A stretch of 63,297 nucleotides of DNA, counting the filler, from an uncultured bacterium (lineage in GTDB: Bacteria > DYJV01), in NCBI GenBank assembly GCA_964543655.1. It is 6 parts of 6 records of this genome, joined end to end, with 100 filler letters (N's around TTAATTAATTAA, not from the genome) between each part and the next. Parts side by side here need not be neighbours in the genome. Positions count along the whole stretch, not along the records: positions 1 to 23,092 come from CAZIZE010000020.1; 5 more parts are not named here. One strand, 5' to 3'. The position numbers and the translations under genes are program-made. The notes under the pieces are model-generated. The model searched no databases. It saw only the letters and a program-made list of their open reading frames with translations, and was not told the origin of the DNA. Below are positions 4,993 to 33,003 of the stretch, in pieces. Each line of letters opens with the position of its first letter. The first letter of the stretch is position 1.

Positions 4993-7900
4993 TTATCTCC
5001 AGGCATCATAAAGCTTACCAAGAATACCCTCTGACTCTTTTTCTGCTGCAATATATTCTCCATTAGCATTTACTTTAACAGTTATGTAATTACCATTATA
5101 AGTTAATACTTTTGCATCTTTAACAGGAGCAAAATAGATATCTCCAGGTGCCTTTCTATAAATTACAGGTGTAGCACCATCAAAAGGCAACTGAATAATC
5201 ATAGTTTTACCATCAAGGTCTTCAACATCAATTTTGCACATATATCCTTCTATAAAACCTGCACCTTTAGCATATACTGAAACTTTCCCAGGAACAAAAC
5301 CCATTTCAATTATCTTAGGTTTTAGCTCTGCAGGAACATAGAAGTAATGTTTATCTGACCATGGACCATTTACAACCTGCCTTACATATTCTTCATTTAA
5401 TTCTTCAGAGCTGAAGTTAGATGAAGAAACTCCAAGTTCATCTGCAATTTTACCTTTTTCAACTTTACCTTCTGCAACTATATAGAATAACTCTTCAGCA
5501 TGATGCTTACTTAGAGCAAGTACATCTTTAGCTTCAGCACCAAGAAATTTTACTCCATTTGCTTCAACAGGTTTAATATACGCAACTTCACCATCCACAA
5601 TGAAAAATCCATTAGGATTAGCTGGCTCCATTTTACCTGTTTCTTCATTGTATTTAAGAGCTCTATTTTCTTCTTTAAACCAAGCTGGTGCCCATGGCAT
5701 AAAACCTATAATCCTATCAGTAATTCTGTGTGCACCTGCATCTTTCTTATAATCACCGTGACAATCATTACATGATTTAGCACCAAGTGCTTTATCAGCA
5801 GGTAATACTCCATGGCTATCAGAAAAGTAATGTGCTGCAATAAAAAGCATTGGTTTTGGATCTTTTTCACCTTCTGCTTTTAAAACTTTAGTTAAAGCTT
5901 CCTGCATTGCTTTAACATCCTCATCCCACCAGATATCTGGAAAACCATCACCTGTATGATCACAGATCACATATCCACTATCTTTTAATACAACTTTACC
6001 AATATTTGGATTATCTTTACACTCCTGTGGTCCTATATTTTCAAGCTGTTTAGGAGTATATGCATAAAATGTAGATACTGGCAAAAATTTATCTATTGCT
6101 GCGTTAATCTCTCTTAAATATAAAACTTTAGCACCATTGTATGGTAAATCACTCATATCATGATCAGGTTGAGGATTAGCATCAACCCATGTTAAAATAG
6201 TAATAGGGTTACCAATAACTATCTGAGGATAACCATTTTCACCATTTGCCCAGTATAGAGGTGGAAAAACTTCATTATCATTTTTATCTGTGTAATGTAT
6301 TGGTAAACCTTCATCAATTGCCCTATTGAGACTTAATTGATAAAATTTCTTCCAGAAATCAAACTTTGGATTAGTCATAAGACCATTTACTAATGGTCCT
6401 GTGTCTGCTTCACTATCAAACCAGAAATAATCAACCATTTGTGCTATATAATCCATTGGCTGTGTGCCATTTCCATCAGCATCTATGTGTTGTGACACCA
6501 TATGAAAGTGTGGAATACCATATCCTGGTGAAGTTCCATAAACAGGAGAAAGAGCATAATATGGTGGAAAAGCCATTGCTGGAAAATTTGATAATCCACC
6601 AGCTAAGATATAGTATCCAAATCTATTGTCAAAGTTTGAATAATACCCAAGTGTATCATCAAAAGTTCTAAATCTCCAGGTTCTTCTATATGGCACATGG
6701 CAAGTTTGACAAGCAATTTCAGCAATATGCCTTTCTGTATTTTCACCAAATTTCTCTTCATGTGCTTTTGTAGGATTAGGTGCATTTGGGTCTCCGCCCA
6801 TCAAGTGACAATACTCACAGGTCTTAGGTTTTGGGTTATTATCAAGGTCATTTCTAACCATATGTGCAGTATCAGTGCCTTTAAGGAAATTATGCTTTTC
6901 TTCTATTGTACCTGATTCTCTAAGGTGGCAGGAACCACAACCCATTTTTTTACCAGACATATGAACATCATAACCTGGTGATTCTTTATCAGCTGTAAAA
7001 TTAACAAATTGACCATTTTTTACCCAATCAGCTGGCATACCAAGATTATATGTTCTACCCCTTGTCCATTCGCTATTTCCATGGTCCTTTGTCATAACAT
7101 GGCACTGACCACAAACCTTAATCCACTTCCATGAATTAATGTCTTTGTTACCACCAAAAATATCAATATTAACACTACCATCTCCTAAATCACCAGCATT
7201 GTAGTAAACTTTTGGAACCCAATCATTTCCAACTTTATCAATTTGAATATATACAATTGGAGTTCCATCATGGTTCAAATCAAGTCCCATTAAATCAGCT
7301 GATGGCATTAAGTAGAAGAAATTTGGCAGATAATCATGCTTTACTGACATATTTTTTAGAACATCAAAAGGTATCTTGCCACTTGTCCAATCAGCTATAA
7401 CTTTAGCTAAGTTAATACCAAAAAATGAATTTTTATCATAATATGTCATATCTCCCTGCATCACTTTCATATACGCATATTGAAAAGCAGCCCAACCAAC
7501 ACCAACAAGTCCACTATACTGAATGCCTTGCCCCTCTACAAGTGGTGACCTAACATAATCTCTAACTGATGCATCAGGATCATCCCAATCTGTGTAGAAT
7601 TTACCAGGTTCATACAGTCTTAATGGATATGGGATAGGCAATAATCCACCTGTACCTGGATCTCTAATCTCATATCCATAAATGAATTGATTAAAAAATG
7701 CCTGCATCATCTGATCCATAGTAAGATTGAGATTATATTTAGTGTTAATATAATTTAGCATTTTCATAAAAATTCCACCAATTGCCTGCTGATTGCTCAT
7801 AAGTTTCTGCATTTCATCAGCACCACCGTTGGGGTTATAGGTAAATGCATCTTTGATTCCAGTCTGAGTGTAAATATTTGGAGCTATTTGTGGACTTGCA

Positions 7901-9006
7901 TACAAAGCATATGGTAATGATTTACCTGTAGGGTCAATCTCTTTGAGCCCATCTGTCCAAATTTTGAAAAGCTCACCAATATCGTCCTTAGGAAGTTGAC
8001 TTAAAATAAAGTATTGTTTTCCAATAGGCCTTGTCATTCGCATAATATCATTGGTATAATTGAGGACACTGCTATTTAAAACTCCTTCTTTAGTTGGCAT
8101 ACCAAGTGATATTTTGGTAATCTGGCCATTTGCATCTCTCTCTGCAAAAATCATAAGTCTTGGTCTGAAAGGTTGAACTTTAAGGCCATCTGCTGCTGTA
8201 TATACATCTGGATTACTATTTAAATCAGGATCTATGTGGCAAAGGAGACAATCTGCTTCCATAACACCAGATTTTTTCCAATCATGTCTCTTTGGTGCTC
8301 CTATTTCTTTGATTGTTTCATCAATGGATTTGCCACTAATTAATGCTTTAGTAACATCATTTGAGGAATAATCATAAAAATCTCTGTCATAAGAATGAAC
8401 TGGAGTTAAACTTGGGCTATCATAAGGTGTAACAGAGCCATCACTATTTACAATACCTTCAGCAGGCCCACCTCCTGCGTGGCATGAATAGCAAACAGCC
8501 ATTTCATCTGCTATACCCACATCAAAAAAGTATGGTTTACCTTCTGATGTAAAAGGATCCTTATAGCTTCCTCTCTGCTTCTTAGCCGCCAACTGACGGT
8601 AAGAAGGAGGTCACCACGCACCAAACTGACCACCTGCTTCAAGATGGCCATAAGCATGGGTTAAATATTTTTGAAGAGTGTTGTTCTGATTTTTAGAAAC
8701 CCACAAGTCATCAGTTCTTTTTCCATAAGGACCAACACCTTCTCTAAAATGATAAGCCATTGTTATTGATTTATAATCATGACATTTCCCACAGGTCTGT
8801 TTAGGACTGTAAGCAGGTCCCTTATAATAAACAGAACCATTTGCTGCAACTATTTTATCAGTTTTATCCAACTGATTTATTATTGGATTTCCATTCCTAT
8901 CCAATAATTGCACAGCAGGGTGTGCCATTAACAAGGATGGAATTGCAATCAGAATTGCAATTACAAATGAAAACCAGAAGATTTTGCTTTTTGCTTTTAC
9001 TGACAT
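4993..9006 (-). CDS. Octaheme c-type cytochrome selenoprotein (1337 aa, Sec132), octaheme tetrathionate reductase-like scaffold, exported
   Basis: ORFs 8611-9006 and 4993-8592 are in frame across a single TGA (8611-8613): GGQFGAW-U-PPSYRQLAAKK. SECIS-like hairpin directly downstream, N-terminal signal peptide, 8 CxxCH motifs at aa 72, 172, 253, 632, 690, 730, 766 and 1079. Confidence 0.85.
8570..8610 (-). promoter_or_regulatory. Bacterial SECIS-like hairpin
   Basis: mRNA UGA-CCUC-CUUCUUA-CCGUC-[AGUU]-GGCGG-C-UAAGAAG-CAGA-GAGG forms three stacked helices; the G-containing apical loop starts 16 nt after the UGA. Confidence 0.8.
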
Positions 9007-9059
9007 TATAAATGCCTCCTCCTTTAATATTTTTTATAATCTATATATGATAGATTCTG

Positions 9060-9977
9060 CTACTTTTTATACATTATTATGTTGTTATGACATCTCATAC
9101 AATCAGATGTTGTATGACAAACATTACATGATCTAAAGTTCTTTTCAGCTTCCTCAGCATGACCTGGCATTGGAGTAAACCTTACCCAGTCTCCCCTTCT
9201 ATGAGAAATTGGTTTTTCACTTTTATGGCAATCTGCACAGTATGATGCTGTGTGGCATGTTGCGCAAAGTTTTCTATCATGAATTGCTTCTATACCATGC
9301 TGTGAAGTTTTCCAATTGAATATATGGTCTTTTGGTTTTTTTGTTCTGTGGCAATCTTGACAGAAATTACCATTTTTCTTAAAATGTGGATCATGGCAAT
9401 ATCTACAGCTATCATCAAATTTACTTGCTAATCCATGATTTGATTCCCAGTCACCATGATGGGACTCAGGAGGAACATCTTTTCTTATTTTTTTATGACA
9501 TGTATCACACTCTATAGGAGCTGTATCACCATCGTGGCACTCTAAACATTTTGTCATTTTCGGCCAAGAAATATTTTGAATAGTTTTAGATTTATCAATT
9601 CCTTTATGACATCTGCTACATTTATAATCTGAATGTGGGTCATGGGTAAAGATTAAATCTTTATAACTTGCTGGTTTTGGATTAACACCAACTTCCACTT
9701 CATAATCTTTTTTAGAGCTTTGAATTGTATGGCATTTAAGACAATCTTTTGTAGGATTATCAACATCTCCAATATCATGACAATCACTACATGTATCCAT
9801 ATCTGGATTGGACATATTGCCATTGTCATCTGCTTTATGACAGGTTGAACACTCAATCTCATTTTCAACAACATGCAGATTATGATTGAATTTTAAATCT
9901 GTGGAACCTTTCTTGCAACCAATTAACCCTAAAGATAGAATAGCTGCTATTATAAAAATTTTTTTAAAAAATCCCAT
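9060..9977 (-). CDS. Dodecaheme cytochrome c lipoprotein
   Basis: Lipobox LIG-C at aa 21; 12 CxxCH motifs in 305 aa (CSTCH, CSDCH, CLKCH, CSRCH, CLECH, CDTCH, CRYCH, CQDCH, CATCH, CADCH, CNVCH, CMRCH). Confidence 0.9.
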   Translation of the reverse strand: MGFFKKIFIIAAILSLGLIGCKKGSTDLKFNHNLHVVENEIECSTCHKADDNGNMSNPDMDTCSDCHDIGDVDNPTKDCLKCHTIQSSKKDYEVEVGVNPKPASYKDLIFTHDPHSDYKCSRCHKGIDKSKTIQNISWPKMTKCLECHDGDTAPIECDTCHKKIRKDVPPESHHGDWESNHGLASKFDDSCRYCHDPHFKKNGNFCQDCHRTKKPKDHIFNWKTSQHGIEAIHDRKLCATCHTASYCADCHKSEKPISHRRGDWVRFTPMPGHAEEAEKNFRSCNVCHTTSDCMRCHNNIIMYKK

Positions 9978-10009: not shown

Positions 10010-11395
10010 CTACCATGTTAAATGAAGATTGGCTGTAATGGCATTAATACCACTAATGCCAAATTCATGATAATAATCATCTGTTTCATATTCATACTTT
10101 AATGAAACCCATTTATCTTCTGCAAATTTATATTTAACACTTCCATAATAGTAATGTGAAGCTTCACCTTCTATTAAGCTATTAACATCCTCTGTTTTAT
10201 AATAAAATCCTGCATTTAAACTGACCTTTTCACAAATTTCTTGCTCAAGATCAGCAAACCATGATTCAGAAGAACTATCGTAAAGATGTTTTTTATCTTC
10301 TTTCCAGTAGCTGTAACCTATGGAAAATTTGGTTCCCTTTAATTTCCACCAGTTATCAAGGTTTAAACCAACACTCCATCTGTAAAAATCTGTATTGTAT
10401 AGATTTTCATAAATATTTTCATAATCATCATTAATATCTCTTCTTGTATATTTCACATAAAAAGTCATTCCTTCCTGCTTTGGTATTGGCTGACTAATAG
10501 AAATAGAATAGTCAATATAGCCATATAACCTTGCAAGGTAAAACCTTTTAATATCTTTCCCTATATTGTCTTCAATAGTTGTAGTATAATCGTAGAGGAA
10601 ATCATCTTTAACAGGAATGGTAAATCTTTTATAAATATCAATGGTAAGAGTGGTTTTAGTATAAGGGCATGTGGCAATTAAATCTACATTCCAGAATCTA
10701 CTACTTGAATTAATAAATGCAAATCTACCTCTCAATTTAATGTTTTCCATAGGTGTATAATATGTGCCAAGTTCATAAGAATTTTTCTGATAAAAAACAG
10801 AATCAAGATAAAAAATCAAATTTTTAACAGCTTTTACTTCAATATTAAAGCCGCCAACTCCATCCTGCTTTAAATTGGAATATGTTTGAACAATTCTACC
10901 ACCAAAAATTTCAAAATTTAACCAATCTGCAATTGCGCCATCACCAGTAACAGATGCACCATCATAATGTACAATCTCTGAGCTATAAGCATATTGACGG
11001 CCTAATTTAAAATCAACATCAGGTAGCAGGTTCTCTTTTGTAAAATAGGCATAATATACATCCAACTTTTGTCTATTCTTGCCTGTATCCACATAATCTT
11101 GAAAAATAGAGCCAGATGGTGTACCATCTAAATCTTTTGCATATTTACCAAGAAATGAAAATGAGATATCAGAATCATTATGCACTGCATCAATACCTAA
11201 AATTTCAGAAATATCCTGATCACTGTCATCATTGCTAACTAAAAAACCATTGGGCTTATCTGACCATTGGTAAATATACTTGGTGTTACTAAAGAGATTA
11301 ATTGACCCCCAATCAAAATCATGGGAATATAGAAAAGAGGTTGTTAAAAGAAATACAAAAATCATAAAGAGCTTAAAAGAACATTTCCATTTCAT
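10010..11395 (-). CDS. Outer-membrane beta-barrel (putative porin of a porin-cytochrome complex)
   Basis: Signal peptide, Tyr/Asp/Gly-rich alternating strands (DFKLGRQY, LNAGFYY, SVKYKF), C-terminal ANLHLTW typical of Bam substrates; first gene of the cytochrome operon. Confidence 0.75.
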   Translation of the reverse strand: MKWKCSFKLFMIFVFLLTTSFLYSHDFDWGSINLFSNTKYIYQWSDKPNGFLVSNDDSDQDISEILGIDAVHNDSDISFSFLGKYAKDLDGTPSGSIFQDYVDTGKNRQKLDVYYAYFTKENLLPDVDFKLGRQYAYSSEIVHYDGASVTGDGAIADWLNFEIFGGRIVQTYSNLKQDGVGGFNIEVKAVKNLIFYLDSVFYQKNSYELGTYYTPMENIKLRGRFAFINSSSRFWNVDLIATCPYTKTTLTIDIYKRFTIPVKDDFLYDYTTTIEDNIGKDIKRFYLARLYGYIDYSISISQPIPKQEGMTFYVKYTRRDINDDYENIYENLYNTDFYRWSVGLNLDNWWKLKGTKFSIGYSYWKEDKKHLYDSSSESWFADLEQEICEKVSLNAGFYYKTEDVNSLIEGEASHYYYGSVKYKFAEDKWVSLKYEYETDDYYHEFGISGINAITANLHLTW

Positions 11396-11933: not shown

Positions 11934-11960
11934 AGAGCCCTCTTCTTCTGGGCTCTTTTT
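11934..11960. terminator. Terminator between convergent genes
   Basis: AGAGCCC-N9-GGGCTCT followed by a T-run. Confidence 0.7.
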
Positions 11961-12535
11961 TATTCATCAGCAACTATTTCATCTTCTCTTTCAAAAGATT
12001 TTGCAACTTTTTTTCCAAGTTTAAAACCAAGTTGCAAAGCTTTTTCATTTTCTTTAATAAATTTTTCTGGTACTCTATTTATCACAGCAGCTGTCATACT
12101 TTTTCTACTCACAATCTTTGTAATTTCAGTAAGAACCCCAAGAGCAACTATATTTGCAAAAATTTCTTTTTTAAGGTTCTTAACTGTTTCTCTTGTAATA
12201 TCCACACAATATGCATTGGTTGTAGGGACATTTTTTACAAAAGTTGTATCCACAATAAATATTCCATTTAACTTCAAGTCATTAAAATATTTATCACATG
12301 ATGCCTGATTCATTGAAAGCAAAATGTCAGGATTGTTGGTTTTGGGATAATATATTTCACCTTCTGATATTATAACTTCAGCTTTACTTGCTCCGCCTCT
12401 TGCTTCTGGTCCATAACTCTGGCTTTGAACAACATTTTTACCATCAAGAATAGCAGCTTCAGCCAAAATTATTCCAGCAGTAATCAATCCCTGGCCACCT
12501 GAACCTGCAAGCCTTACTTCTATTCTATTTTCCAT
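11960..12535 (-). CDS. korC: 2-oxoacid:ferredoxin oxidoreductase gamma subunit
   Basis: AGSGGQG and QSYGPEARGGAS motifs; operon context. Confidence 0.9.
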   Translation of the reverse strand: MENRIEVRLAGSGGQGLITAGIILAEAAILDGKNVVQSQSYGPEARGGASKAEVIISEGEIYYPKTNNPDILLSMNQASCDKYFNDLKLNGIFIVDTTFVKNVPTTNAYCVDITRETVKNLKKEIFANIVALGVLTEITKIVSRKSMTAAVINRVPEKFIKENEKALQLGFKLGKKVAKSFEREDEIVADE

Positions 12536-12547
12536 TAAAAAAGCCTC

Positions 12548-13378
12548 CTATTTTACTTTTAACTTTTTTCTGATAATTTCTTCATACTGTTCACAATATT
12601 CAGGCTTATCTTTTTTTACTAAAATCCCTGTTGTAATTTTCCCTTCTAACTCTTCTGGCTTTTTATCCTTAGCCTGATCAATAGGAATAGCTATCTCTTT
12701 TTCCCATTTAACCATTTGCACAGGGTCTGCCATCTTATTCCTTCTTCCAAAAGTAGTTGGGCAATGAGTAACTACTTCAACAGTTGAAAAACCTTTATGC
12801 TCAAGAGCTGCTTGTATAACATTAACAAGCTGCTTAACATGATAGGTGGTTGACCTTGCAACAAAAGTTGCACCTGCTGCTTCTGCAAGCTTTGAAATAT
12901 CAAAAGGAACTTCTATATTGCCATGTTTTGCTGTGGTTGCTTTTGCATGATGTGGTGTTGTAGGGCTATACTGCCCCCCTGTCATGCCATAAATATTATT
13001 ATTGTATATAATTGCTGTAATATCAATATTTCTTCTGCAAGCATGAATAAAATGGTTACCACCAATAGCTGTTGCATCACCATCACCCATTACAACAATA
13101 ACATGAAGCTTTGGTTTTGCAAGCTTGAGCCCTGTTGCAAATGCAAGGGCTCTACCATGAGTAGTATGCAATGTGTTAAAATCAACATAAACAGGAGTTC
13201 TACCAGAGCAACCAATCCCTGAAACAAGAGCAATTTCATCCTTGGGAATTGCAAGATTATCAATAGCTATAAGCATTGCATGTAAAATTGTACCATTGCC
13301 ACAACCTGGGCACCATAAATGTGGAAACTTTTTATCATGCCTTAAATATTTTTCAAGTAATTGCTTATTTGATAACAT
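12548..13378 (-). CDS. korB: 2-oxoacid:ferredoxin oxidoreductase beta subunit
   Basis: WCPGCG, SGIGCSG, GDGD...NN TPP motif, YGMTGGQ. Confidence 0.92.
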   Translation of the reverse strand: MLSNKQLLEKYLRHDKKFPHLWCPGCGNGTILHAMLIAIDNLAIPKDEIALVSGIGCSGRTPVYVDFNTLHTTHGRALAFATGLKLAKPKLHVIVVMGDGDATAIGGNHFIHACRRNIDITAIIYNNNIYGMTGGQYSPTTPHHAKATTAKHGNIEVPFDISKLAEAAGATFVARSTTYHVKQLVNVIQAALEHKGFSTVEVVTHCPTTFGRRNKMADPVQMVKWEKEIAIPIDQAKDKKPEELEGKITTGILVKKDKPEYCEQYEEIIRKKLKVK

Positions 13379-14524
13379 TTAAACTACTCCTTTCATTGCT
13401 TTAACAATCTCTTGAGGAGTTATCATTTCACCATTAATCTTTGAAAACTTTTTAACTTCAGCACGGCCTCCAGTAACTCTCACCACTTCTCTATAAATCT
13501 GTCCTATATTCATTTCAGGTACTAAAAAACCTTTAATATTTGGTAGAACTTTTTCCACTGCAAATCGTGGAAATGGCCACAAAGTTTTAAGCTCCAAAAT
13601 TCCAACTTTAACCCCTTTTTCTCTTAGAGCTGGTAAAGCTGAAAGAGCTGAAAGAGTAACACTTCCATATGTAATAATTGCATATTCAGCATCATCCATC
13701 TGATGATACTTTATCATACAAATTTCTCTGTAACCACGCTCTATTTTTCTAAAAAGTCTGGATAAAAAGTCCTCAACCTCTTTAGGCTTGGAGGTTGGAA
13801 AACCTTTTTCATCATGAACCAATCCTGTAACATGATACCTGTACCCCTCACCAAAACTTGCCATTGCTGGAACACCAGTGATATTATTTTCATAAGGCAC
13901 ATACCATTCAGGAGGCATATTAGGCTTTATTCTGTCAATTCTGGTAATTTTGCTTTCATCTGGCAATGCAACCCTTGCCCTCATATGTGCAATAACTTCA
14001 TCCATTAACAATATTACCGGGTTTCTATATTTTTCAGAAAGATTAATTGCTTTAATTGTTAAATCAAAAGCATCTTTAACTGATGAAGGGGAAAGAACAA
14101 TAATAGGATGATCACCATGAGTCCCCCAACGCGCCTGCATAACATCACCTTGAGCTGGACTTGTTGGAAGGCCTGTAGATGGGCCACCTCTCATTACATT
14201 AACAAGCACAAGAGGTACCTCAGCAATTGCAGCAAAACCAAGATTTTCCTGCTTTAATGAAAAACCAGGACCAGATGTTGCTGTTAAAGATTTGACTCCA
14301 CCAAGTGAGGCACCTATAACTGCAGCAATGCTACCTATTTCATCTTCCATCTGAATAAATTTTCCACCAACTTCTGGCAATTTATCTGATAAAATCTCTG
14401 CAATCTCTGTAGCTGGAGTAATAGGGTATCCAGCAAAAAATCGCACTCCCCCCATTATGGCTGCTTCAGCAACAGCCTCATTTCCCTGTAACAATCTATA
14501 TTCTTTTCTTTTTTTACGAGGCAT
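13379..14524 (-). CDS. korA: 2-oxoacid:ferredoxin oxidoreductase alpha subunit
   Basis: GYPITP, QMEDE, TSGPGFSL and RGGPSTG motifs. Confidence 0.92.
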   Translation of the reverse strand: MPRKKRKEYRLLQGNEAVAEAAIMGGVRFFAGYPITPATEIAEILSDKLPEVGGKFIQMEDEIGSIAAVIGASLGGVKSLTATSGPGFSLKQENLGFAAIAEVPLVLVNVMRGGPSTGLPTSPAQGDVMQARWGTHGDHPIIVLSPSSVKDAFDLTIKAINLSEKYRNPVILLMDEVIAHMRARVALPDESKITRIDRIKPNMPPEWYVPYENNITGVPAMASFGEGYRYHVTGLVHDEKGFPTSKPKEVEDFLSRLFRKIERGYREICMIKYHQMDDAEYAIITYGSVTLSALSALPALREKGVKVGILELKTLWPFPRFAVEKVLPNIKGFLVPEMNIGQIYREVVRVTGGRAEVKKFSKINGEMITPQEIVKAMKGVV

Positions 14525-28923: not shown

Positions 28924-29883
28924 ATGGAAAGTGTTAATATTAAATTCTGTGCAATGTTAAATAACATAAGGATAGATAAATATCTTGCTCAAACTTTAAA
29001 ATATTCAAGATCGCACATTAGCAAGATTATAAATGAAGGAAATTTATTAGTCAATAACAAAAAAGTTAAATCAAGCTATACAGTAAAAAAACATGACACC
29101 ATTTTTATTACTTTAAAAAAACCTGAAAAATTAAACCTTACACCTCAAAATTTAAATATAGAAATAGTTTATCAAGATGAATTTATAGCTGTTGTTAATA
29201 AACCTGCAAATATGGTAGTTCATCCATCTGCAGGACACAATCAAAATACCCTTGTAAATGCACTTCTATTTCATTGTAAAAATCTATCATCAATTAATGA
29301 TGTTATTAGACCAGGTATTGTGCACAGACTTGATAAAGACACTTCAGGATTGATGGTTATAGCAAAGAATAATTTAGCACATCTCTCCTTATCAGAGCAA
29401 TTTAAAAATAGAAATGTAAAAAAGTATTACAAGGCTTTAACTTTTGGTATAGTTAAACCTGAAAAAGGCAGAATTGAGAGTTTTATAGGAAGGCATAAAA
29501 AAAATCGTTTAAAATTTTCATCATTTACATCAAGTGGCAAACTTGCTATTACCAATTATTCAGTTGAAAAATATTTTAAAAATTTCTCATTACTTGATAT
29601 TAACATTGAAACAGGAAGAACTCACCAGATAAGAGTTCATTTATCAGAAAAAGGCTTTCCACTTGTTGGTGATAGCTTATATGCAAGTAAAAAAATTTTA
29701 AAAACTTTACCTTATAAAATTGAAAGAGTGTTTCTTCATTCTTATAGATTAATTTTTAACCATCCTGAAACAGAGGAAGTATTAGATTTCAGAATTGAAT
29801 TACCAGTTGAATTGAAAAATTTTTTAAGAAGAATAGAAGATGAAAAAAATAACATTTCAAGAAAGCTTAACATTAAACAGTAA
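28924..29883 (+). CDS. rluD: RluA/RluD family pseudouridine synthase
   Basis: S4 domain, RPGIVHRLDKDTSG, TGRTHQIRVH. Confidence 0.92.
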   Translation: MESVNIKFCAMLNNIRIDKYLAQTLKYSRSHISKIINEGNLLVNNKKVKSSYTVKKHDTIFITLKKPEKLNLTPQNLNIEIVYQDEFIAVVNKPANMVVHPSAGHNQNTLVNALLFHCKNLSSINDVIRPGIVHRLDKDTSGLMVIAKNNLAHLSLSEQFKNRNVKKYYKALTFGIVKPEKGRIESFIGRHKKNRLKFSSFTSSGKLAITNYSVEKYFKNFSLLDINIETGRTHQIRVHLSEKGFPLVGDSLYASKKILKTLPYKIERVFLHSYRLIFNHPETEEVLDFRIELPVELKNFLRRIEDEKNNISRKLNIKQ

Positions 29884-30895
29884 ATTATACATTGATTGCA
29901 GATCTCCTGCTGAGTATGAAATAGACCATATTCCCAACTCTTATAATATTCCTATTCTTGATAATCATGAAAGAGCTATTATTGGCAAAATATACAAAGA
30001 GAAAGGAAGTTTTGAAGCGAAGAAAAAGGGAGTTGAAATTGTATCACCAAAATTAAAAGATTTAATTGATACTCTTCTAAATATTACTGAAAATTTTAAA
30101 AATATTATTTTTTATTGTGCAAGAGGAGGTTTGCGCTCTACAGCTCTTGCCAACTTTTTCTCACTTGTTTCAAGCAAAAATATTTTAATTCTCAATAGAG
30201 GATATAAAGGTTACAGAAATTATATTTTAACCTTTTTTAAGCACTTTGATTTTAAAGGTAAGTTTTTAGTGGTAGATGGTTTTACAGGTAGTGGCAAAAC
30301 TCTAATTTTAAAAAACTTAAAAGAAAAGGGGCTACCTGTAATTGATCTTGAAGATTTAGCAAAACATAGAGGCTCTGTTTTTGGTGGTGTTGGAATTGAA
30401 AAAAAGCCGTCACAGAAAAAGTTTGAAACTCTCTTATGGTATGAAATGAATAAATTTAAAAATAAAAGCATAATTATAGTTGAAGGTGAGAGCAAAAATA
30501 TTGGTAAAATTTCTTTACCTGCAAAATTTTATGAAAAAATGAACAGTAGCCCTCATATATGGATAGAGACTGATGATAATCTACGTGTAAAAATCATCAA
30601 AGAAGATTATCTTGCAAATATAAAATCATACAATGAATTAACAGAGCCAGTGCTTTATTTAAAAAGATTTTTAGGTAAAAAAAATGTGAACATGCTTGTA
30701 GAGGAGATAAAAAAAGAAAATTTTGATTTTGTAATAATGTTTTTGCTAAAAAATTATTATGATATTCTTTACAAAAAACATAGATTACCAGAAGAAAAGT
30801 TTTATAAAAAAATCTATTTCACCAATATATTAGAAGGGACAGAAAAGATAGAGGAAATATTTTATGAGCTAAAAGGAGATAAATGGAACCATTAG
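29840..30895 (+). CDS. mnmH: tRNA 2-selenouridine(34) synthase
   Basis: Rhodanese domain (DCRSPAEY...YCARGGLRS), P-loop GFTGSGKT, DLEDLAKHRGSVFG, EGES..IG. Confidence 0.93.
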   Translation: MKKITFQESLTLNSKLYIDCRSPAEYEIDHIPNSYNIPILDNHERAIIGKIYKEKGSFEAKKKGVEIVSPKLKDLIDTLLNITENFKNIIFYCARGGLRSTALANFFSLVSSKNILILNRGYKGYRNYILTFFKHFDFKGKFLVVDGFTGSGKTLILKNLKEKGLPVIDLEDLAKHRGSVFGGVGIEKKPSQKKFETLLWYEMNKFKNKSIIIVEGESKNIGKISLPAKFYEKMNSSPHIWIETDDNLRVKIIKEDYLANIKSYNELTEPVLYLKRFLGKKNVNMLVEEIKKENFDFVIMFLLKNYYDILYKKHRLPEEKFYKKIYFTNILEGTEKIEEIFYELKGDKWNH

Positions 30896-31899: not shown

Positions 31900-33003
31900 A
31901 TGAAAAAATCAAGTAAAGGCAAAATTATTATTTTTCTATTATTTATTTTTGCAATAATAGGTTTTTTTGGTGGTGTTGAAGCACTTCACTATAGTAGTGA
32001 GCCTAAATTTTGTGCCTTGTGCCATCCAAAGCAGCAACCTGGGCCAAATGGTGAAGTTTTCACATGGAAGCAATCTATCCATGCAAAAGCAGATGTTGAA
32101 TGTCTCGATTGCCATGCAAAGCCAGGTGTAATAAATTACTTTATAAGAAAAGTAACTGCTGCCAAAGATTTATATACTCAGCTCACACATTCACCAAAAG
32201 AGTTAGATGAAATTTTATCTCACCCATCACCTCATGCAGCACCAGAGCAATCATGTTTGTTTTGTCACAGTGACAGCTTTAATAAGAAATGGAGAAGCAG
32301 TCACTTTATGACATTACCAACAAGTTTTCTAAAATTTAGAATGTTAGATTATGTTAAGAATCCTCAATTTAGAGAAAAATATTCTTTAAAAGATATTTTA
32401 ACATCTGATGAAGTTAATGGTTTTTCATTTTCACACAAAGAGCATATGGATAATTTCAATGATTTAAAGTGCACAACTTGCCATTTTGAGCAGGTAGGCC
32501 ATCCTGATTTCCGTAAAAACTACAAGTATATGATGAAAATGGTTTGTTTTAAATGCCATGAAGAAAACGATGGTCCAGACAATAAAGAATGCTCCACATG
32601 CCATGTTGTTCAGGATAGTATTAGAAATGGGCAGATTGATAATATGAAAGGTGATAAAGATGTTATGGCTGACCTTGACTGTACTGATTGCCATCAATCT
32701 TTTAAGAAAATGCCAGATAAACAAACTTGTATTGAATGCCACGATGGTGATGAAGAGTATGGTAAAACTTTAACTCAATGGAAAACTACTGTTAATAGCA
32801 GACTAAACACATTAAATCTTCTCTATTTAAAAGCAAGGGAAAAAGCATTAAAAAACAGAAATTTAATGCCTGATTTTAAAAAAGCAGAAAAGCTTTACAA
32901 TGCAGTGAGATTTGATGGTTCAAAAGGTGTTCACAATTTTGAATTTACCACATCTATTTTAGACAAAGTGGAAAAAGATTTTAAAGATATTCTAAATAAA
33001 TAA
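31900..33003 (+). CDS. Membrane-anchored octaheme cytochrome c with a NapC/NirT-type N-terminus
   Basis: N-terminal TM helix, SSEPKFCALCH...W..S.H..VECLDCH pattern; 8 CxxCH motifs; C-terminal DGSKGVHN. Confidence 0.85.
   Translation: MKKSSKGKIIIFLLFIFAIIGFFGGVEALHYSSEPKFCALCHPKQQPGPNGEVFTWKQSIHAKADVECLDCHAKPGVINYFIRKVTAAKDLYTQLTHSPKELDEILSHPSPHAAPEQSCLFCHSDSFNKKWRSSHFMTLPTSFLKFRMLDYVKNPQFREKYSLKDILTSDEVNGFSFSHKEHMDNFNDLKCTTCHFEQVGHPDFRKNYKYMMKMVCFKCHEENDGPDNKECSTCHVVQDSIRNGQIDNMKGDKDVMADLDCTDCHQSFKKMPDKQTCIECHDGDEEYGKTLTQWKTTVNSRLNTLNLLYLKAREKALKNRNLMPDFKKAEKLYNAVRFDGSKGVHNFEFTTSILDKVEKDFKDILNK

What the first reader, a model, noticed from the sequence alone, without database searches (positions are those of the whole stretch)
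4993..9006. Hidden 1337-aa octaheme cytochrome c selenoprotein: two ORFs joined by an in-frame UGA
Seen in sequence: the 131-aa ORF ends GGQFGAW-TGA (8611-8613); six sense codons (PPSYRQ) then lead in the same frame into the 1199-aa ORF. The upstream piece has the RBS (AGGAGGAGG), the signal peptide and one CxxCH. The downstream piece has seven CxxCH, but only a TTG start with no Shine-Dalgarno and no export signal, although c-type heme attachment requires export. Established: bacteria decode UGA as selenocysteine when a hairpin follows immediately, and a Sec-containing multiheme cytochrome is known (ExtKL/MccSep of Geobacter sulfurreducens, a smaller protein with fewer hemes). Inference: this is one exported octaheme protein with Sec132 in a W-U-P-P motif, apparently a different family from ExtKL and one that standard gene callers split. 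I cannot confirm novelty without a search.
Basis: partly seen in the sequence, partly recalled or inferred. Interest (0 to 1): 0.95.

Follow-up and report, generated by a model that had tools for sequence, protein, structure and literature searches.

The report
Split selenocysteine octaheme cytochrome, new family
Two neighbouring reading frames are really one large exported eight-heme cytochrome that carries selenocysteine at an in-frame UGA, a member of a widespread, unrecognised selenoprotein family encoded beside an outer-membrane pore and a twelve-heme wire protein.

Summary
On the minus strand, the 131-aa ORF (9006..8611) ends in TGA and runs in frame into the 1199-aa ORF. Read through, this gives a 1337-aa protein with a signal peptide and eight CxxCH motifs.

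- **TGA conservation:** the TGA is kept in all 13 homologous genome loci that cover the site, and in 29 of 36 matches across 401 sampled genomes.
- **SECIS:** a hairpin (CCGYC-AGKU-GGCGG) starts 11 nt after the UGA. It is fixed at codon level and shows compensatory changes across subfamilies.
- **Cys homologues:** distant homologues carry Cys at or next to the Sec position.
- **Sec machinery:** five related genomes have selB, selD and tRNA-Sec, and four have selA. The window itself encodes selenouridine synthase.

The protein is not MccSep/ExtKL or an OTR-family member by HMM score, and no PDB fold match was found for residues 28-640.

It is the third gene of a conserved cluster: beta-barrel, 12-heme lipoprotein, Sec cytochrome. 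A complex model places the 12-heme protein inside the barrel.

Its function is inferred, not shown. I think it most likely does selenolate-assisted redox chemistry on sulfur compounds at or near the outer membrane. I class it as a new variant of a recently described kind.

The parts
4993..9006 (-). One gene for a 1337-aa exported octaheme c-type cytochrome with selenocysteine at residue 132 (stop codon 4995..4993). The mature protein is about 152 kDa with 8 hemes.
   Evidence: Read-through translation. Full-length homology in 13 loci. Mass.
9015..9023 (-). Shine-Dalgarno-like AGGAGGAGG, 8 nt ahead of the ATG at 9006
   Evidence: Sequence read
8923..9006 (-). Signal peptide, residues 1-28 (MSVKAKSKIFWFSFVIAILIAIPSLLMA|HP). 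There is no lipobox. His29-Pro30 is invariant in the family.
   Evidence: Sequence and invariant columns of alignment A1. The cleavage site is inferred from the sequence pattern, not computed.
8611..8613 (-). In-frame UGA read as selenocysteine (U132) in the motif G-x-W-U-P-P-S-Y-R-Q
   Evidence: TGA in 14 of 14 sequences. It is the only codon at this column in 13 of 13 rows of A1. Cys in distant homologues.
8578..8606 (-). SECIS-like hairpin. The apical stem-loop CCGUC-AGUU-GGCGG lies at 8599..8586, 11 nt after the UGA. A variable lower stem lies at 8606..8600 / 8584..8578.
   Evidence: Folds. Codon-level invariance. Covariation across subfamilies.
8779..8793 (-). Heme 1 motif CGKCH (residue 72), upstream of the UGA
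   Evidence: invariant in A1
8479..8493 (-). Heme 2 motif CYSCH (residue 172), in the conserved C-x-S-C-H-x-G-G-G-P-x-E-G block
8236..8250 (-). Heme 3 motif CLLCH (residue 253)
6697..7113 (-). Hemes 4-7 (CGQCH 632, CGSCH 690, CEYCH 730, CQTCH 766). This is the only part with a Pfam match, to MtrC/MtrF domain II/IV.
   Evidence: PF22113 at 32.5 bits against a cut-off of 30, residues 630-774. Motifs.
5758..5772 (-). Heme 8 motif CNDCH (residue 1079)
9060..9977 (-). Upstream gene: 305-aa lipoprotein (lipobox LIG|C) with 12 CxxCH motifs. It is conserved next to the Sec gene.
   Evidence: 12 motifs. Pfam c7/c3/MtrC-like matches. Present in 13 of 13 loci. Predicted to sit inside the barrel.
10010..11395 (-). 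First gene of the cluster: 461-aa outer-membrane beta-barrel with no Pfam or NCBIfam family
   Evidence: No family. The nearest Atlas clusters are alginate-export-like and other outer-membrane barrels. Present in 13 of 13 loci. Complex model.

Best explanation
**What it is.** The two ORFs are one gene. The ribosome starts at the ATG at 9006 and reads UGA 8613..8611 as selenocysteine. SelB is recruited by a hairpin whose apical stem starts 11 nt after the UGA. The product is a 1337-aa pre-protein, which is exported by its N-terminal signal peptide and receives eight c-type hemes.

**Family and motif.** It belongs to a previously unnamed superfamily of large multiheme cytochromes. Their N-terminal module carries Sec, or Cys in some branches, in a G-x-W-[U/C] loop between heme 1 and heme 2. 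Sec forms always read W/M-U-P-P.

**Gene cluster.** It is the third gene of a conserved unit: an outer-membrane beta-barrel, a 12-heme lipoprotein and the Sec cytochrome. The 12-heme protein is predicted to thread the barrel, which would make a trans-outer-membrane electron wire.

**Inferred mechanism.** Electrons arrive through the 12-heme wire and the eight hemes. The selenolate sits on a mobile, strictly conserved loop beside a heme. It attacks a chalcogen substrate (polysulfide/S0, tetrathionate, thiosulfate or selenite), and the adduct is then reduced through the hemes. The published MccSep mechanism is the model for this, here in an unrelated protein at or near the cell surface.

**Status and odds.** The single gene, the conserved UGA, the hairpin, the Cys homologues and the cluster are shown. 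Sec insertion itself, the location, the substrate and the catalytic role are inferred. My odds are about 0.95 for a Sec-containing single protein, about 0.8 for a family distinct from the described heme selenoproteins, about 0.5 for sulfur or chalcogen redox catalysis, and about 0.4 for a surface-exposed partner of a porin-cytochrome conduit.
For: **Single gene**
- Frame and motifs are as described.
- Of the 84 best database proteins (P0002-P0085), 83 cover at most 67% of the first 420 residues. The 7 such sequences I read begin at the Leu139 codon, (M/L)AAK/N.
- Four separate N-terminal fragments (P0125, P0126, P0128, P0169) end exactly at W131.

**Conserved UGA**
- TGA is present in 14 of 14 sequences.
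- 4 of 4 matches in the phylum of G001 have one TGA.
- 29 of 36 matches in 401 genomes of the phylum of G002 have one TGA, including all 18 matches at 57% identity or more.
- All 12 distant TGA-type regions fetched read G-x-[WM]-U-P-P.

**RNA element**
- Of 393 alignment columns with an invariant amino acid that has synonymous codons, only 5 keep one codon in all 13 sequences. These are 132 (TGA), 136 (TAC), 138 (CAG), 140 (GCG) and 155.
- R137 uses only CGT or CGC, and position 139 only TTG or GTG.
- All 26 Sec-type sequences keep NNNCC-AGKU-GGNNN, with the loop 16 or 22 nt after the UGA.
- On that alignment 88% of cells pair and 3 of 6 pairs show compensatory changes. The covariation score is 0.254 against a shuffled mean of 0.075, reached by 0 of 500 shuffles. 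Slid controls reach at most 0.080.

**Cys homologues**
- 16 of 21 distant homologues have Cys at or next to the Sec column, and L057 reads W-C-P-T.

**Sec machinery**
- selB is present in 5 of 5 related genomes, selA in 4 of 5, selD in 5 of 5 (each with one in-frame TGA) and tRNA-Sec in 5 of 5.
- The window itself encodes tRNA 2-selenouridine synthase (349.7 bits against a cut-off of 241).

**Standard genetic code**
- The window's ORFs end in TAA 31 times, TAG 11 times and TGA 6 times.

**Cluster and location**
- The barrel gene and the 12-heme gene are present in 13 of 13 loci.
- The complex model scores 0.70 against a best control of 0.00. That mark was reached by 58 of 80 solved complexes and 2 of 110 mismatched pairs. 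The runs agree in at least 69% of contacts, and the partner's pLDDT is at least 71.
- Contacts fall on alternating barrel residues all around the barrel.

**Sec loop**
- In the model of residues 28-640 (pLDDT 88.2, pTM 0.89), the only segment under pLDDT 50 is model residues 93-110. These are protein residues 120-137, the Sec loop.

**Precedent**
- MccSep uses a Sec on a mobile loop beside a heme to reduce polysulfide (PMC13510729; sections read).

**Habitat**
- The best holder among sequencing runs is labelled a hydrothermal vent metagenome.
Against: - No experiment shows selenium in this protein.
- The window's own genome is not held and the window has no tRNA gene. Its selA, selB and selC are therefore unseen.
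- The hairpin's folding energy alone is unremarkable: z = -1.63, and 17 of 200 shuffles fold as well.
- Within the close family alone, covariation is not significant: 80 of 500 shuffles reach the observed score.
- The Q-L-A residues encoded by the loop are partly kept in Cys forms too. Some of the conservation is therefore at protein level.
- Five of 21 distant homologues have Leu, Tyr, Asp or Asn/Ser at the site. The residue is therefore dispensable in some lineages.
- Unlike MccSep, there is no conserved Cys outside the CxxCH motifs. The MccSep Sec/Cys-heme mechanism cannot be copied exactly.
- The Sec protein has an ordinary signal peptide and no lipobox. Surface exposure is unsupported by sequence.
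- The complex model could reflect likeness to solved Mtr-type complexes.
- Substrate and direction of catalysis are guesses.
- dsrA was not found in carriers G001-G005 but is present in carrier G040. Physiology therefore gives no clear pointer.
Confidence: 0.85

Rival explanations
1. Sec is made and inserted, but the protein is a periplasmic terminal reductase. The beta-barrel is a substrate channel for anionic sulfur or selenium species, as proposed for ExtI beside MccSep, rather than a sheath for a cytochrome wire.
For: MccSep is periplasmic and encoded beside the porin-like ExtI (PMC13510729 sections read; PMC5877670 abstract seen in the listing). The nearest Atlas clusters of the barrel include 'alginate export domain-containing protein', an anion-export barrel type. 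The Sec protein has a plain signal peptide and no lipobox.
Against: The complex model places residues 169-253 of the 12-heme protein against lumen-facing residues all round the barrel, with a score of 0.70 against 0.00 for the controls. A 12-heme lipoprotein is an unusual partner for a simple solute pore.
Confidence: 0.3
2. Sec is inserted but is not a catalytic nucleophile. Instead it is an axial ligand or close neighbour of a heme that tunes its potential, and the protein is purely an electron-transfer module of an extracellular electron-transfer conduit to minerals or partner cells.
For: The only Pfam match is to the MtrC/MtrF domain, and the gene order resembles porin-cytochrome clusters. 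There is no conserved free Cys to partner with Sec. Homologues tolerate Leu, Tyr, Asp or Ser at the site, as expected if loss of the residue merely changes a heme's ligation.
Against: From established knowledge of selenoproteins, known bacterial examples use Sec in catalysis. The loop is modelled with low confidence, as mobile active-site loops often are, whereas ligand-bearing segments are usually well defined. No natural Sec-ligated heme is known to me (recalled, not searched).
Confidence: 0.2
3. The UGA is read through or recoded by something other than Sec, such as near-cognate Trp or Cys insertion stimulated by the hairpin. Alternatively, translation stops and restarts at the TTG.
For: UGA followed by C is a weak stop context (recalled knowledge). 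The hairpin energy is unremarkable. No selenium data exist.
Against: Cys sits at the site in homologues. Full Sec machinery is present in related carriers. The hairpin has the spacing and G/U-containing apical loop of bacterial SECIS elements and is under codon-level selection. A restart product would lack an export signal, yet it bears seven CxxCH motifs.
Confidence: 0.03
4. These are two real genes, or a pseudogene or assembly error: a small monoheme protein and a separate seven-heme protein.
For: This is how gene callers have annotated it. 83 of the 84 best database proteins are the split form.
Against: The same in-frame TGA recurs with invariant flanking codons at 55-83% protein identity in 13 other loci. 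There is no RBS or signal peptide for the second piece. Contigs of two runs from two studies show no difference at the TGA. The six 'intergenic' codons are invariant at protein level.
Confidence: 0.02

Closest known systems
MccSep / ExtKL (GSU2937-2936) of Geobacter sulfurreducens, NCBIfam NF040886 (PMC13510729)
   Same: Both are exported multiheme c-type cytochromes in which an in-frame UGA splits the annotated gene in two and a SECIS-like hairpin follows directly. In both, Sec is followed by Pro on a loop (D-G-U-P against W-U-P-P) and the gene lies near an outer-membrane barrel gene. The organisms overlap in phylum (Desulfobacterota) and habitat.
   Different: P0001 has no match to NF040886 at E<=1. 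MccSep has 5 hemes and is 49 kDa, against 8 hemes and about 152 kDa here. Its Sec (U325) lies after all the hemes in a C-terminal Ig-like domain, whereas here U132 lies between heme 1 and heme 2. MccSep needs a conserved heme-ligating Cys239, and this family has no conserved Cys outside CxxCH. The five carrier genomes tested have no NF040886 match over the cut-off.
Tetrathionate reductase family octaheme cytochrome (OTR), TIGR04315, listed with a Sec form in the 2026 selenoproteome review (PMC13188914; passages only)
   Same: Both have eight hemes. There is a weak local match of hemes 5-7 (residues 659-773) to model positions 158-253. A Sec-containing form exists in that family too.
   Different: The score is 40.4 bits against a cut-off of 375. 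The protein is three times longer. The Sec-bearing N-terminal module is not part of the match.
Porin-cytochrome / Mtr-type trans-outer-membrane conduits (MtrCAB, OmaB-OmbB-OmcB)
   Same: Both have a gene cluster of a barrel, a small multiheme and a large multiheme. The small cytochrome is predicted to lie inside the barrel. The large subunit matches the MtrC/MtrF domain II/IV.
   Different: The barrel matches no MtrB/PioB or other family. Here the lipoprotein is the inserted 12-heme protein, not the large cytochrome. No known conduit of this type has a selenocysteine (searches found none).
Escherichia coli fdhF-type bacterial SECIS (recalled knowledge, not from a call)
   Same: Both have a stem-loop directly after the UGA, an upper stem starting 11 nt downstream and G and U in the apical loop.
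   Different: The loop here is 4 nt (AGUU or AGGU), and the unpaired base is on the 3' side. No Rfam model matches.

Membership tests
Bacterial selenoprotein (UGA decoded as Sec) | In-frame UGA conserved at the same column in orthologues | tested here: met
   14 of 14 sequences; 4 of 4 matches; 29 of 36 matches
Bacterial selenoprotein (UGA decoded as Sec) | SECIS stem-loop immediately downstream of the UGA, under selection as RNA | tested here: met
   The apical stem starts 11 nt after the UGA. Codon-level invariance. Compensatory changes, with 0 of 500 shuffles reaching the observed score.
Bacterial selenoprotein (UGA decoded as Sec) | Homologues with Cys at the Sec position | tested here: met
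   7 of 21 have Cys in the column and 9 of 21 have Cys within a few residues; 5 of 21 have another residue. L057 reads W-C-P-T.
Bacterial selenoprotein (UGA decoded as Sec) | selA, selB, selC and selD in the same genome | tested here: inconclusive
   The window's own genome is not held. Related carriers have selB 5/5, selA 4/5, selD 5/5 and tRNA-Sec 5/5. The window itself has selenouridine synthase, which implies selenophosphate use.
Bacterial selenoprotein (UGA decoded as Sec) | Selenium shown in the polypeptide | not testable with these tools
   Needs 75Se labelling or mass spectrometry
MccSep / ExtKL (NF040886) | Score over the curated cut-off of the family model | tested here: not met
   No match at E<=1 in the NCBIfam scan of P0001
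MccSep / ExtKL (NF040886) | Five hemes followed by a C-terminal Ig-like domain bearing Sec, and a conserved heme-ligating Cys | tested here: not met
   Eight CxxCH motifs, Sec at residue 132 between hemes 1 and 2, and no conserved Cys outside CxxCH. Published features read.
MccSep / ExtKL (NF040886) | Shared fold with the solved structure (9WT8-9WTC) | tested here: inconclusive
   No PDB sequence hit at E<=10 and no Foldseek or VIA match. I could not confirm that these entries are in the copies searched, and only residues 28-640 were modelled.
OTR family octaheme cytochrome (TIGR04315) | Score over the curated cut-off | tested here: not met
   40.4 bits against 375, matching only residues 659-773
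GSU2204 family CXXCH selenoprotein (NF041027) | Match to the family model | tested here: not met
   No match at E<=1
Porin-cytochrome trans-outer-membrane conduit | Adjacent genes for an outer-membrane barrel and multiheme cytochromes | tested here: met
   Cluster present in 13 of 13 loci. Barrel-like neighbours in the Atlas. 12 and 8 CxxCH motifs.
Porin-cytochrome trans-outer-membrane conduit | A cytochrome inserted in the barrel lumen | tested here: inconclusive
   The complex model supports it: 0.70 against a best control of 0.00, a mark reached by 58 of 80 solved complexes and 2 of 110 mismatched pairs. It is a prediction, not a measurement.
Porin-cytochrome trans-outer-membrane conduit | Barrel homologous to MtrB/PioB or OmbB, and a large cytochrome that is a surface lipoprotein | tested here: not met
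   No Pfam or NCBIfam family for the barrel. The Sec protein has no lipobox, and the lipobox is on the 12-heme protein.

The most novel reading that the evidence does not exclude
W-U-P-P selenocytochromes are a large, multi-phylum superfamily that annotation has missed. Their Sec either ligates a c-type heme directly, which would be a natural His/Sec heme, or forms the catalytic tip of a cell-surface sulfur or chalcogen reductase. In the second case the enzyme would be wired to the periplasm through a 12-heme protein threaded in a new type of barrel. That would be a selenium-dependent way of respiring insoluble sulfur or minerals outside the cell.
Probability: 0.3. Interest if true: 0.9.

Novelty: new variant of a known kind. 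Interest (0 to 1): 0.78.

Why it matters
Selenocysteine in a multiheme cytochrome was shown experimentally only in 2026, for MccSep. This window shows a second, unrelated and much larger family using the same idea.

- **Recognisable signature.** Sec forms carry W-U-P-P followed by a CCAGUUGG-centred hairpin. The signature recurs in several subfamilies and in at least two phyla.
- **Annotation is misleading.** In every database protein but one among the 84 best hits, the gene is split. Surveys of multiheme cytochromes therefore see a heptaheme protein with no export signal plus a stray monoheme protein. They misjudge both heme count and location.
- **A possible link between selenium and extracellular respiration.** The link to a predicted barrel-and-wire module suggests that selenium chemistry may operate at the outer membrane of vent and sediment bacteria. 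That would tie selenium supply to sulfur or mineral respiration.
- **A testable candidate.** It gives a concrete candidate for the unsolved question of how insoluble sulfur is attacked outside the cell.

Tried and rejected
- **Whole-genome search of the window's own assembly:** no genome is held.
- **tRNA scan of the window:** 0 genes.
- **Rfam scan around the UGA:** only two chance-level matches, snoU49 and mir-184.
- **Hairpin energy against shuffles:** not significant on its own.
- **Covariation within the close family alone:** not significant. It became significant only after distant Sec subfamilies were added.
- **PDB by sequence:** 0 hits at E<=10.
- **Fold search of residues 28-640:** Foldseek found 0 matches at E<=0.001. 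VIA-align against 48,161 chains gave a best Z of 4.1, with only helical residues 306-416 spanned by many rows. This does not show a new fold.
- **N-terminal module alone (residues 28-327):** it folded poorly, at pLDDT 61.5, so I did not search with it.
- **Metagenome-contig scan:** four attempts did not complete.
- **Atlas search with the 1199-aa piece:** one lead at 0.90, a cytochrome c cluster with PF22113 and no structure model.
- **Sequencing runs:** no RNA holder is listed, so nothing can be said on expression. The X2 contig that covers the TGA starts only 5 nt before it, so that confirmation is weak.
- **Extra upstream genes:** HEAT, Hsp70-like, AAA and DUF1257 genes are conserved upstream in 7 Desulfobacterota loci. 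They look unrelated to the cluster.
- **dsrA as a pointer to physiology:** 0 of 5 carriers G001-G005 have it. It is found in 25 of 61 genomes of the phylum sample, including carrier G040, so it gives no clear rule.
- **Global TGA reassignment:** rejected, because 5 other ORFs of the window end in TGA.
- **Supplementary data of PMC13510729:** I could not check whether its lists of MccSep homologues include any member of this family.

Full report
**1. The observation**

On the minus strand, a 131-aa ORF (9006..8611, ATG) and a 1199-aa ORF (8592..4993, TTG) lie in the same frame. The sequence reads ...GGT GCG TGG TGA CCT CCT TCT TAC CGT CAG TTG.... A single TGA (8613..8611) and six sense codons therefore separate them.

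- AGGAGGAGG (9023..9015) precedes the ATG. Nothing similar precedes the TTG.
- The upstream piece begins with a typical signal peptide. The downstream piece begins MAAKKQRGSYKD, which is hydrophilic.
- Reading TGA as U gives 1337 residues with U132 and no other stop.
- CxxCH motifs lie at residues 72, 172, 253, 632, 690, 730, 766 and 1079.
- The mature protein would be about 152 kDa with its hemes.

**2. Is the TGA conserved?**

A search of 5.8 billion predicted proteins with the first 420 residues returned 263 hits.

- Of the 84 best (P0002-P0085), 83 cover at most 67% of the query. The seven of these that I read start at the codon for Leu139, (M/L)AAK/N. The same split is therefore called in nearly all relatives.
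- An exhaustive HMMER search found four separate N-terminal fragments that end exactly at W131: P0125, P0126, P0128 and P0169.

At DNA level:

- A scan of one genome per species gave 26 loci. The 13 that contain the site all have TGA there, flanked by G-x-W and PPSYRQ, at 55-83% protein identity to the window.
- In whole-genome searches, the phylum of the closest relative (G001) holds only five genomes. Four have the gene, each with one TGA.
- In a sample of 401 genomes of the phylum of G002, 26 genomes gave 36 matches. Of these, 29 have one TGA and 7 have none. All 18 matches at 57% identity or more have one.

Contigs of two sequencing runs from two studies show no difference at the codon. 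One run is probably the source of this DNA. The other run's contig starts only 5 nt before the TGA, so this adds little.

**3. The RNA element**

Directly after the UGA the RNA can form a hairpin. Its energy alone is unremarkable: z = -1.63, and 17 of 200 shuffles fold as well. Three other lines show that it is under selection as RNA.

- **Position and form.** All 14 close sequences have CCGYC-AGKU-GGCGG starting 11 nt after the UGA. From recalled knowledge, that is the spacing of the minimal E. coli fdhF element.
- **Codon use.** Among 393 alignment columns with an invariant amino acid that has synonymous codons, only five use a single codon in all 13 sequences. These are the TGA itself, Tyr136 TAC, Gln138 CAG, Ala140 GCG and one Glu at 155. 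Arg137 uses only CGT or CGC, which pair with G either way. Residue 139 uses only TTG or GTG. Three of the four invariant sense codons therefore sit in the five codons that make the apical stem-loop.
- **Covariation.**
  - Within the close family alone it is not significant.
  - Twelve more distant TGA-containing relatives were fetched from the genome sample. They keep the same loop with different stems, such as GCAGCC/GGCUGC, GCGCC/GGCGC and UUCGAGCC/GGCUUCGAA. The loop lies 16 or 22 nt after the UGA.
  - On the joint alignment 88% of cells pair, and three of six pairs have compensatory changes. The covariation score is 0.254 against 0.075 in shuffles, reached by 0 of 500. Slid controls stay at or under 0.080.

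In the laid metagenome contigs, several further contigs match only 8580-8623 and diverge on both sides. That fits a nucleotide-level conserved element shared by paralogues or other organisms. No Rfam family matches.

**4. Cys homologues and machinery**

- **Homologues.**
  - Twenty-one more distant full-length homologues span the site.
  - Seven have Cys in the Sec column, for example G-K-W-C.
  - Nine have Cys 1-2 residues away (one a few columns upstream) in a G-G-[YF]-x-C-M motif.
  - Five have Leu (P0019), Tyr (2), Asp or Asn/Ser.
  - A TGA-free genomic relative reads W-C-P-T.
  - Every Sec form reads [WM]-U-P-P.
- **Machinery in relatives.** Five genomes that carry the gene have selB over the cut-off (5/5), selA (4/5), selD (5/5, each itself with one in-frame TGA) and tRNA-Sec (5/5).
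- **The window's own organism.**
  - Its genome is not held, and the window has no tRNA.
  - The window does encode tRNA 2-selenouridine synthase at 29840..30895 (349.7 bits against a cut-off of 241). This organism therefore makes and uses selenophosphate.
  - TGA is an ordinary stop elsewhere in the window: 6 of 48 ORF ends, including this one.

Together these meet the usual computational criteria for a selenoprotein. Only direct chemistry is missing.

**5. What kind of protein it is**

- **Family matches.** Pfam matches only residues 630-774, to MtrC/MtrF domain II/IV (32.5 bits against a cut-off of 30). NCBIfam gives only a local 40-bit match to the OTR octaheme family, whose cut-off is 375. 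There is no match to the ExtKL model NF040886 or the GSU2204-family model NF041027.
- **Structure.**
  - No PDB chain matches by sequence at E<=10.
  - An AlphaFold model of residues 28-640 is confident (pLDDT 88.2, pTM 0.89). The one exception is model residues 93-110, protein residues 120-137, which is exactly the invariant Sec loop.
  - That model has no Foldseek match at E<=0.001 and a best VIA Z of 4.1.
  - The N-terminal 300 residues alone fold poorly, so they are not an independent domain.
  - I do not claim a new fold. Only half the protein was modelled, and heme proteins are hard cases.
- **Conserved residues.** All eight CxxCH motifs and 17 further His are invariant in 13 sequences. 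No Cys outside the heme motifs is conserved.

**6. Neighbours**

- **The cluster.** Upstream on the same strand lie a 305-aa lipoprotein with 12 CxxCH motifs (9977..9060) and a 461-aa protein with no family (11395..10010).
  - The nearest Atlas clusters of the 461-aa protein are outer-membrane barrels, including alginate-export-like ones.
  - Both genes stand in the same order in 13 of 13 loci.
- **Complex model.**
  - A model of the barrel with the 12-heme protein scores 0.70 against 0.00 for the best of three controls. That mark was reached by 58 of 80 solved complexes and 2 of 110 mismatched pairs.
  - The runs agree in at least 69% of contacts, and the partner's pLDDT is at least 71.
  - The contacts lie on alternating residues of strands all round the barrel and on residues 169-253 of the cytochrome. 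The cytochrome is therefore placed in the lumen, as in Mtr-type conduits.
  - This supports binding but does not show it, and it may lean on likeness to solved complexes.
- **Other genes.**
  - Downstream lie a response regulator and a Cache/PAS hybrid kinase. These are not conserved elsewhere.
  - A NapC/NirT-like multiheme protein lies at 31900..33003.
- **Habitat.** The best run holder is labelled a hydrothermal vent metagenome.

**7. How it most likely works**

*Shown:* one gene, a conserved UGA, a selected hairpin, Cys homologues and a conserved three-gene unit.

*Inferred:*
- SelB-dependent Sec insertion, followed by export and heme attachment.
- Electrons reach the eight hemes through the 12-heme protein in the barrel.
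- The selenolate, on a mobile and strictly conserved loop between hemes 1 and 2, attacks a sulfur or other chalcogen substrate. The adduct is then reduced through the hemes.

The model for this is MccSep. There, Sec on a two-state loop beside a His/Cys heme reduces polysulfide (PMC13510729; Introduction, Results and Discussion read).

The mechanism cannot be identical, because this family has no conserved heme-ligating Cys. Alternatives are that Sec itself ligates a heme, or that it works beside an open heme site. Whether the enzyme faces the periplasm or the outside is open. The plain signal peptide argues for the periplasm, and the barrel-wire model argues for the surface.

dsrA gives no guide. 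It was not found in five carriers, is present in a sixth, and is found in 25 of 61 genomes of the phylum sample.

**8. Comparison with what is known, and novelty**

- **Literature searches.**
  - I ran four full-text searches: selenocysteine with multiheme cytochrome; with c-type cytochrome and extracellular electron transfer; selenoprotein with multiheme; and a five-term search.
  - They found MccSep and a 2026 review. I saw only passages of the review.
  - Its table lists three heme-related selenoprotein families: ExtKL, the GSU2204 family and a Sec form of the OTR family.
- **Family tests.** This protein fails the model tests for all three.
- **Annotation.** The names given by sources to its relatives are 'hypothetical protein' or 'cytochrome c3 family protein', all in the split form.
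- **Limits.** I found no report of this family as a selenoprotein in those searches.

I therefore rate it a new variant of a known kind. The kind, a selenocysteine multiheme cytochrome, is now known. This is an unrelated, larger family with a different position for Sec, its own motif and a different partner set.

**9. Verdict**

My confidence is about 0.95 that this is one Sec-containing exported octaheme protein, and about 0.8 that the family is distinct from the described ones. The functional reading is about even odds. Interest is 0.78.

Noticed in passing
window 29840..30895 (+): tRNA 2-selenouridine(34) synthase MnmH/SelU (NF008750 349.7 bits against 241; TIGR03167 310.6 against 219.75). 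A second selenium trait on the same contig, which implies that this organism has SelD.
   Followed up: partly
window 31900..33003 (+): A 367-aa NapC/NirT/NrfH-like multiheme cytochrome. It is a candidate inner-membrane quinol dehydrogenase that could feed the periplasmic side of the conduit. It is not adjacent to the cluster.
   Followed up: no
L041-L052 (stretches of G029, G314, G289, G261, G231, G338, G332, G331, G222, G155): At least four further subfamilies of large multiheme cytochromes (30-43% identity in the N-terminal module; open frames of 650-1481 aa) carry the same [WM]-U-P-P motif and the CCAGUUGG-centred hairpin. Some genomes hold two or three such genes.
   Followed up: partly
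P0019 (1910 aa, database protein): A relative with a 540-residue multiheme N-terminal extension has Leu in place of Sec (GQYGGW-L-PYPYRQLAAK) and is therefore called as one gene. It looks like a natural loss of Sec.
   Followed up: no
G001-G005, selD places: SelD of all five related genomes has one in-frame TGA, so selenophosphate synthetase is itself a selenoprotein in these organisms.
   Followed up: no
Genome collection, phylum of G001: The closest relative belongs to a phylum with only five genomes in the held collection. Four of the five carry the gene. The window's organism probably belongs to this small, uncultured group. The window's G+C content is 29.4%.
   Followed up: no
window 8580..8623, runs X1 and X2: Summed contig depth rises about five- to ninefold over just this stretch, because further contigs match only the UGA-plus-hairpin region and diverge on both sides.
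   Followed up: partly
window 8920..8925 (residues 28-30), alignments A1 and A5: His29-Pro30, right after the predicted signal-peptide cut, is invariant in the family. The His is kept in at least 90% of the wider alignment. It may be a heme ligand at the mature N-terminus.
   Followed up: no
L004 483..7120 and the same region of L006, L008, L009, L010, L011, L017: Five co-directional genes (HEAT-repeat, Hsp70-like, AAA ATPase, DUF1257 and one without a family) are conserved upstream of the cluster in the Desulfobacterota loci only. Their function is unknown and probably unrelated.
   Followed up: partly
window 11960..14524 (-): Three-subunit 2-oxoacid:ferredoxin oxidoreductase genes lie directly upstream of the cluster. 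They are also adjacent in L001 and L005.
   Followed up: no
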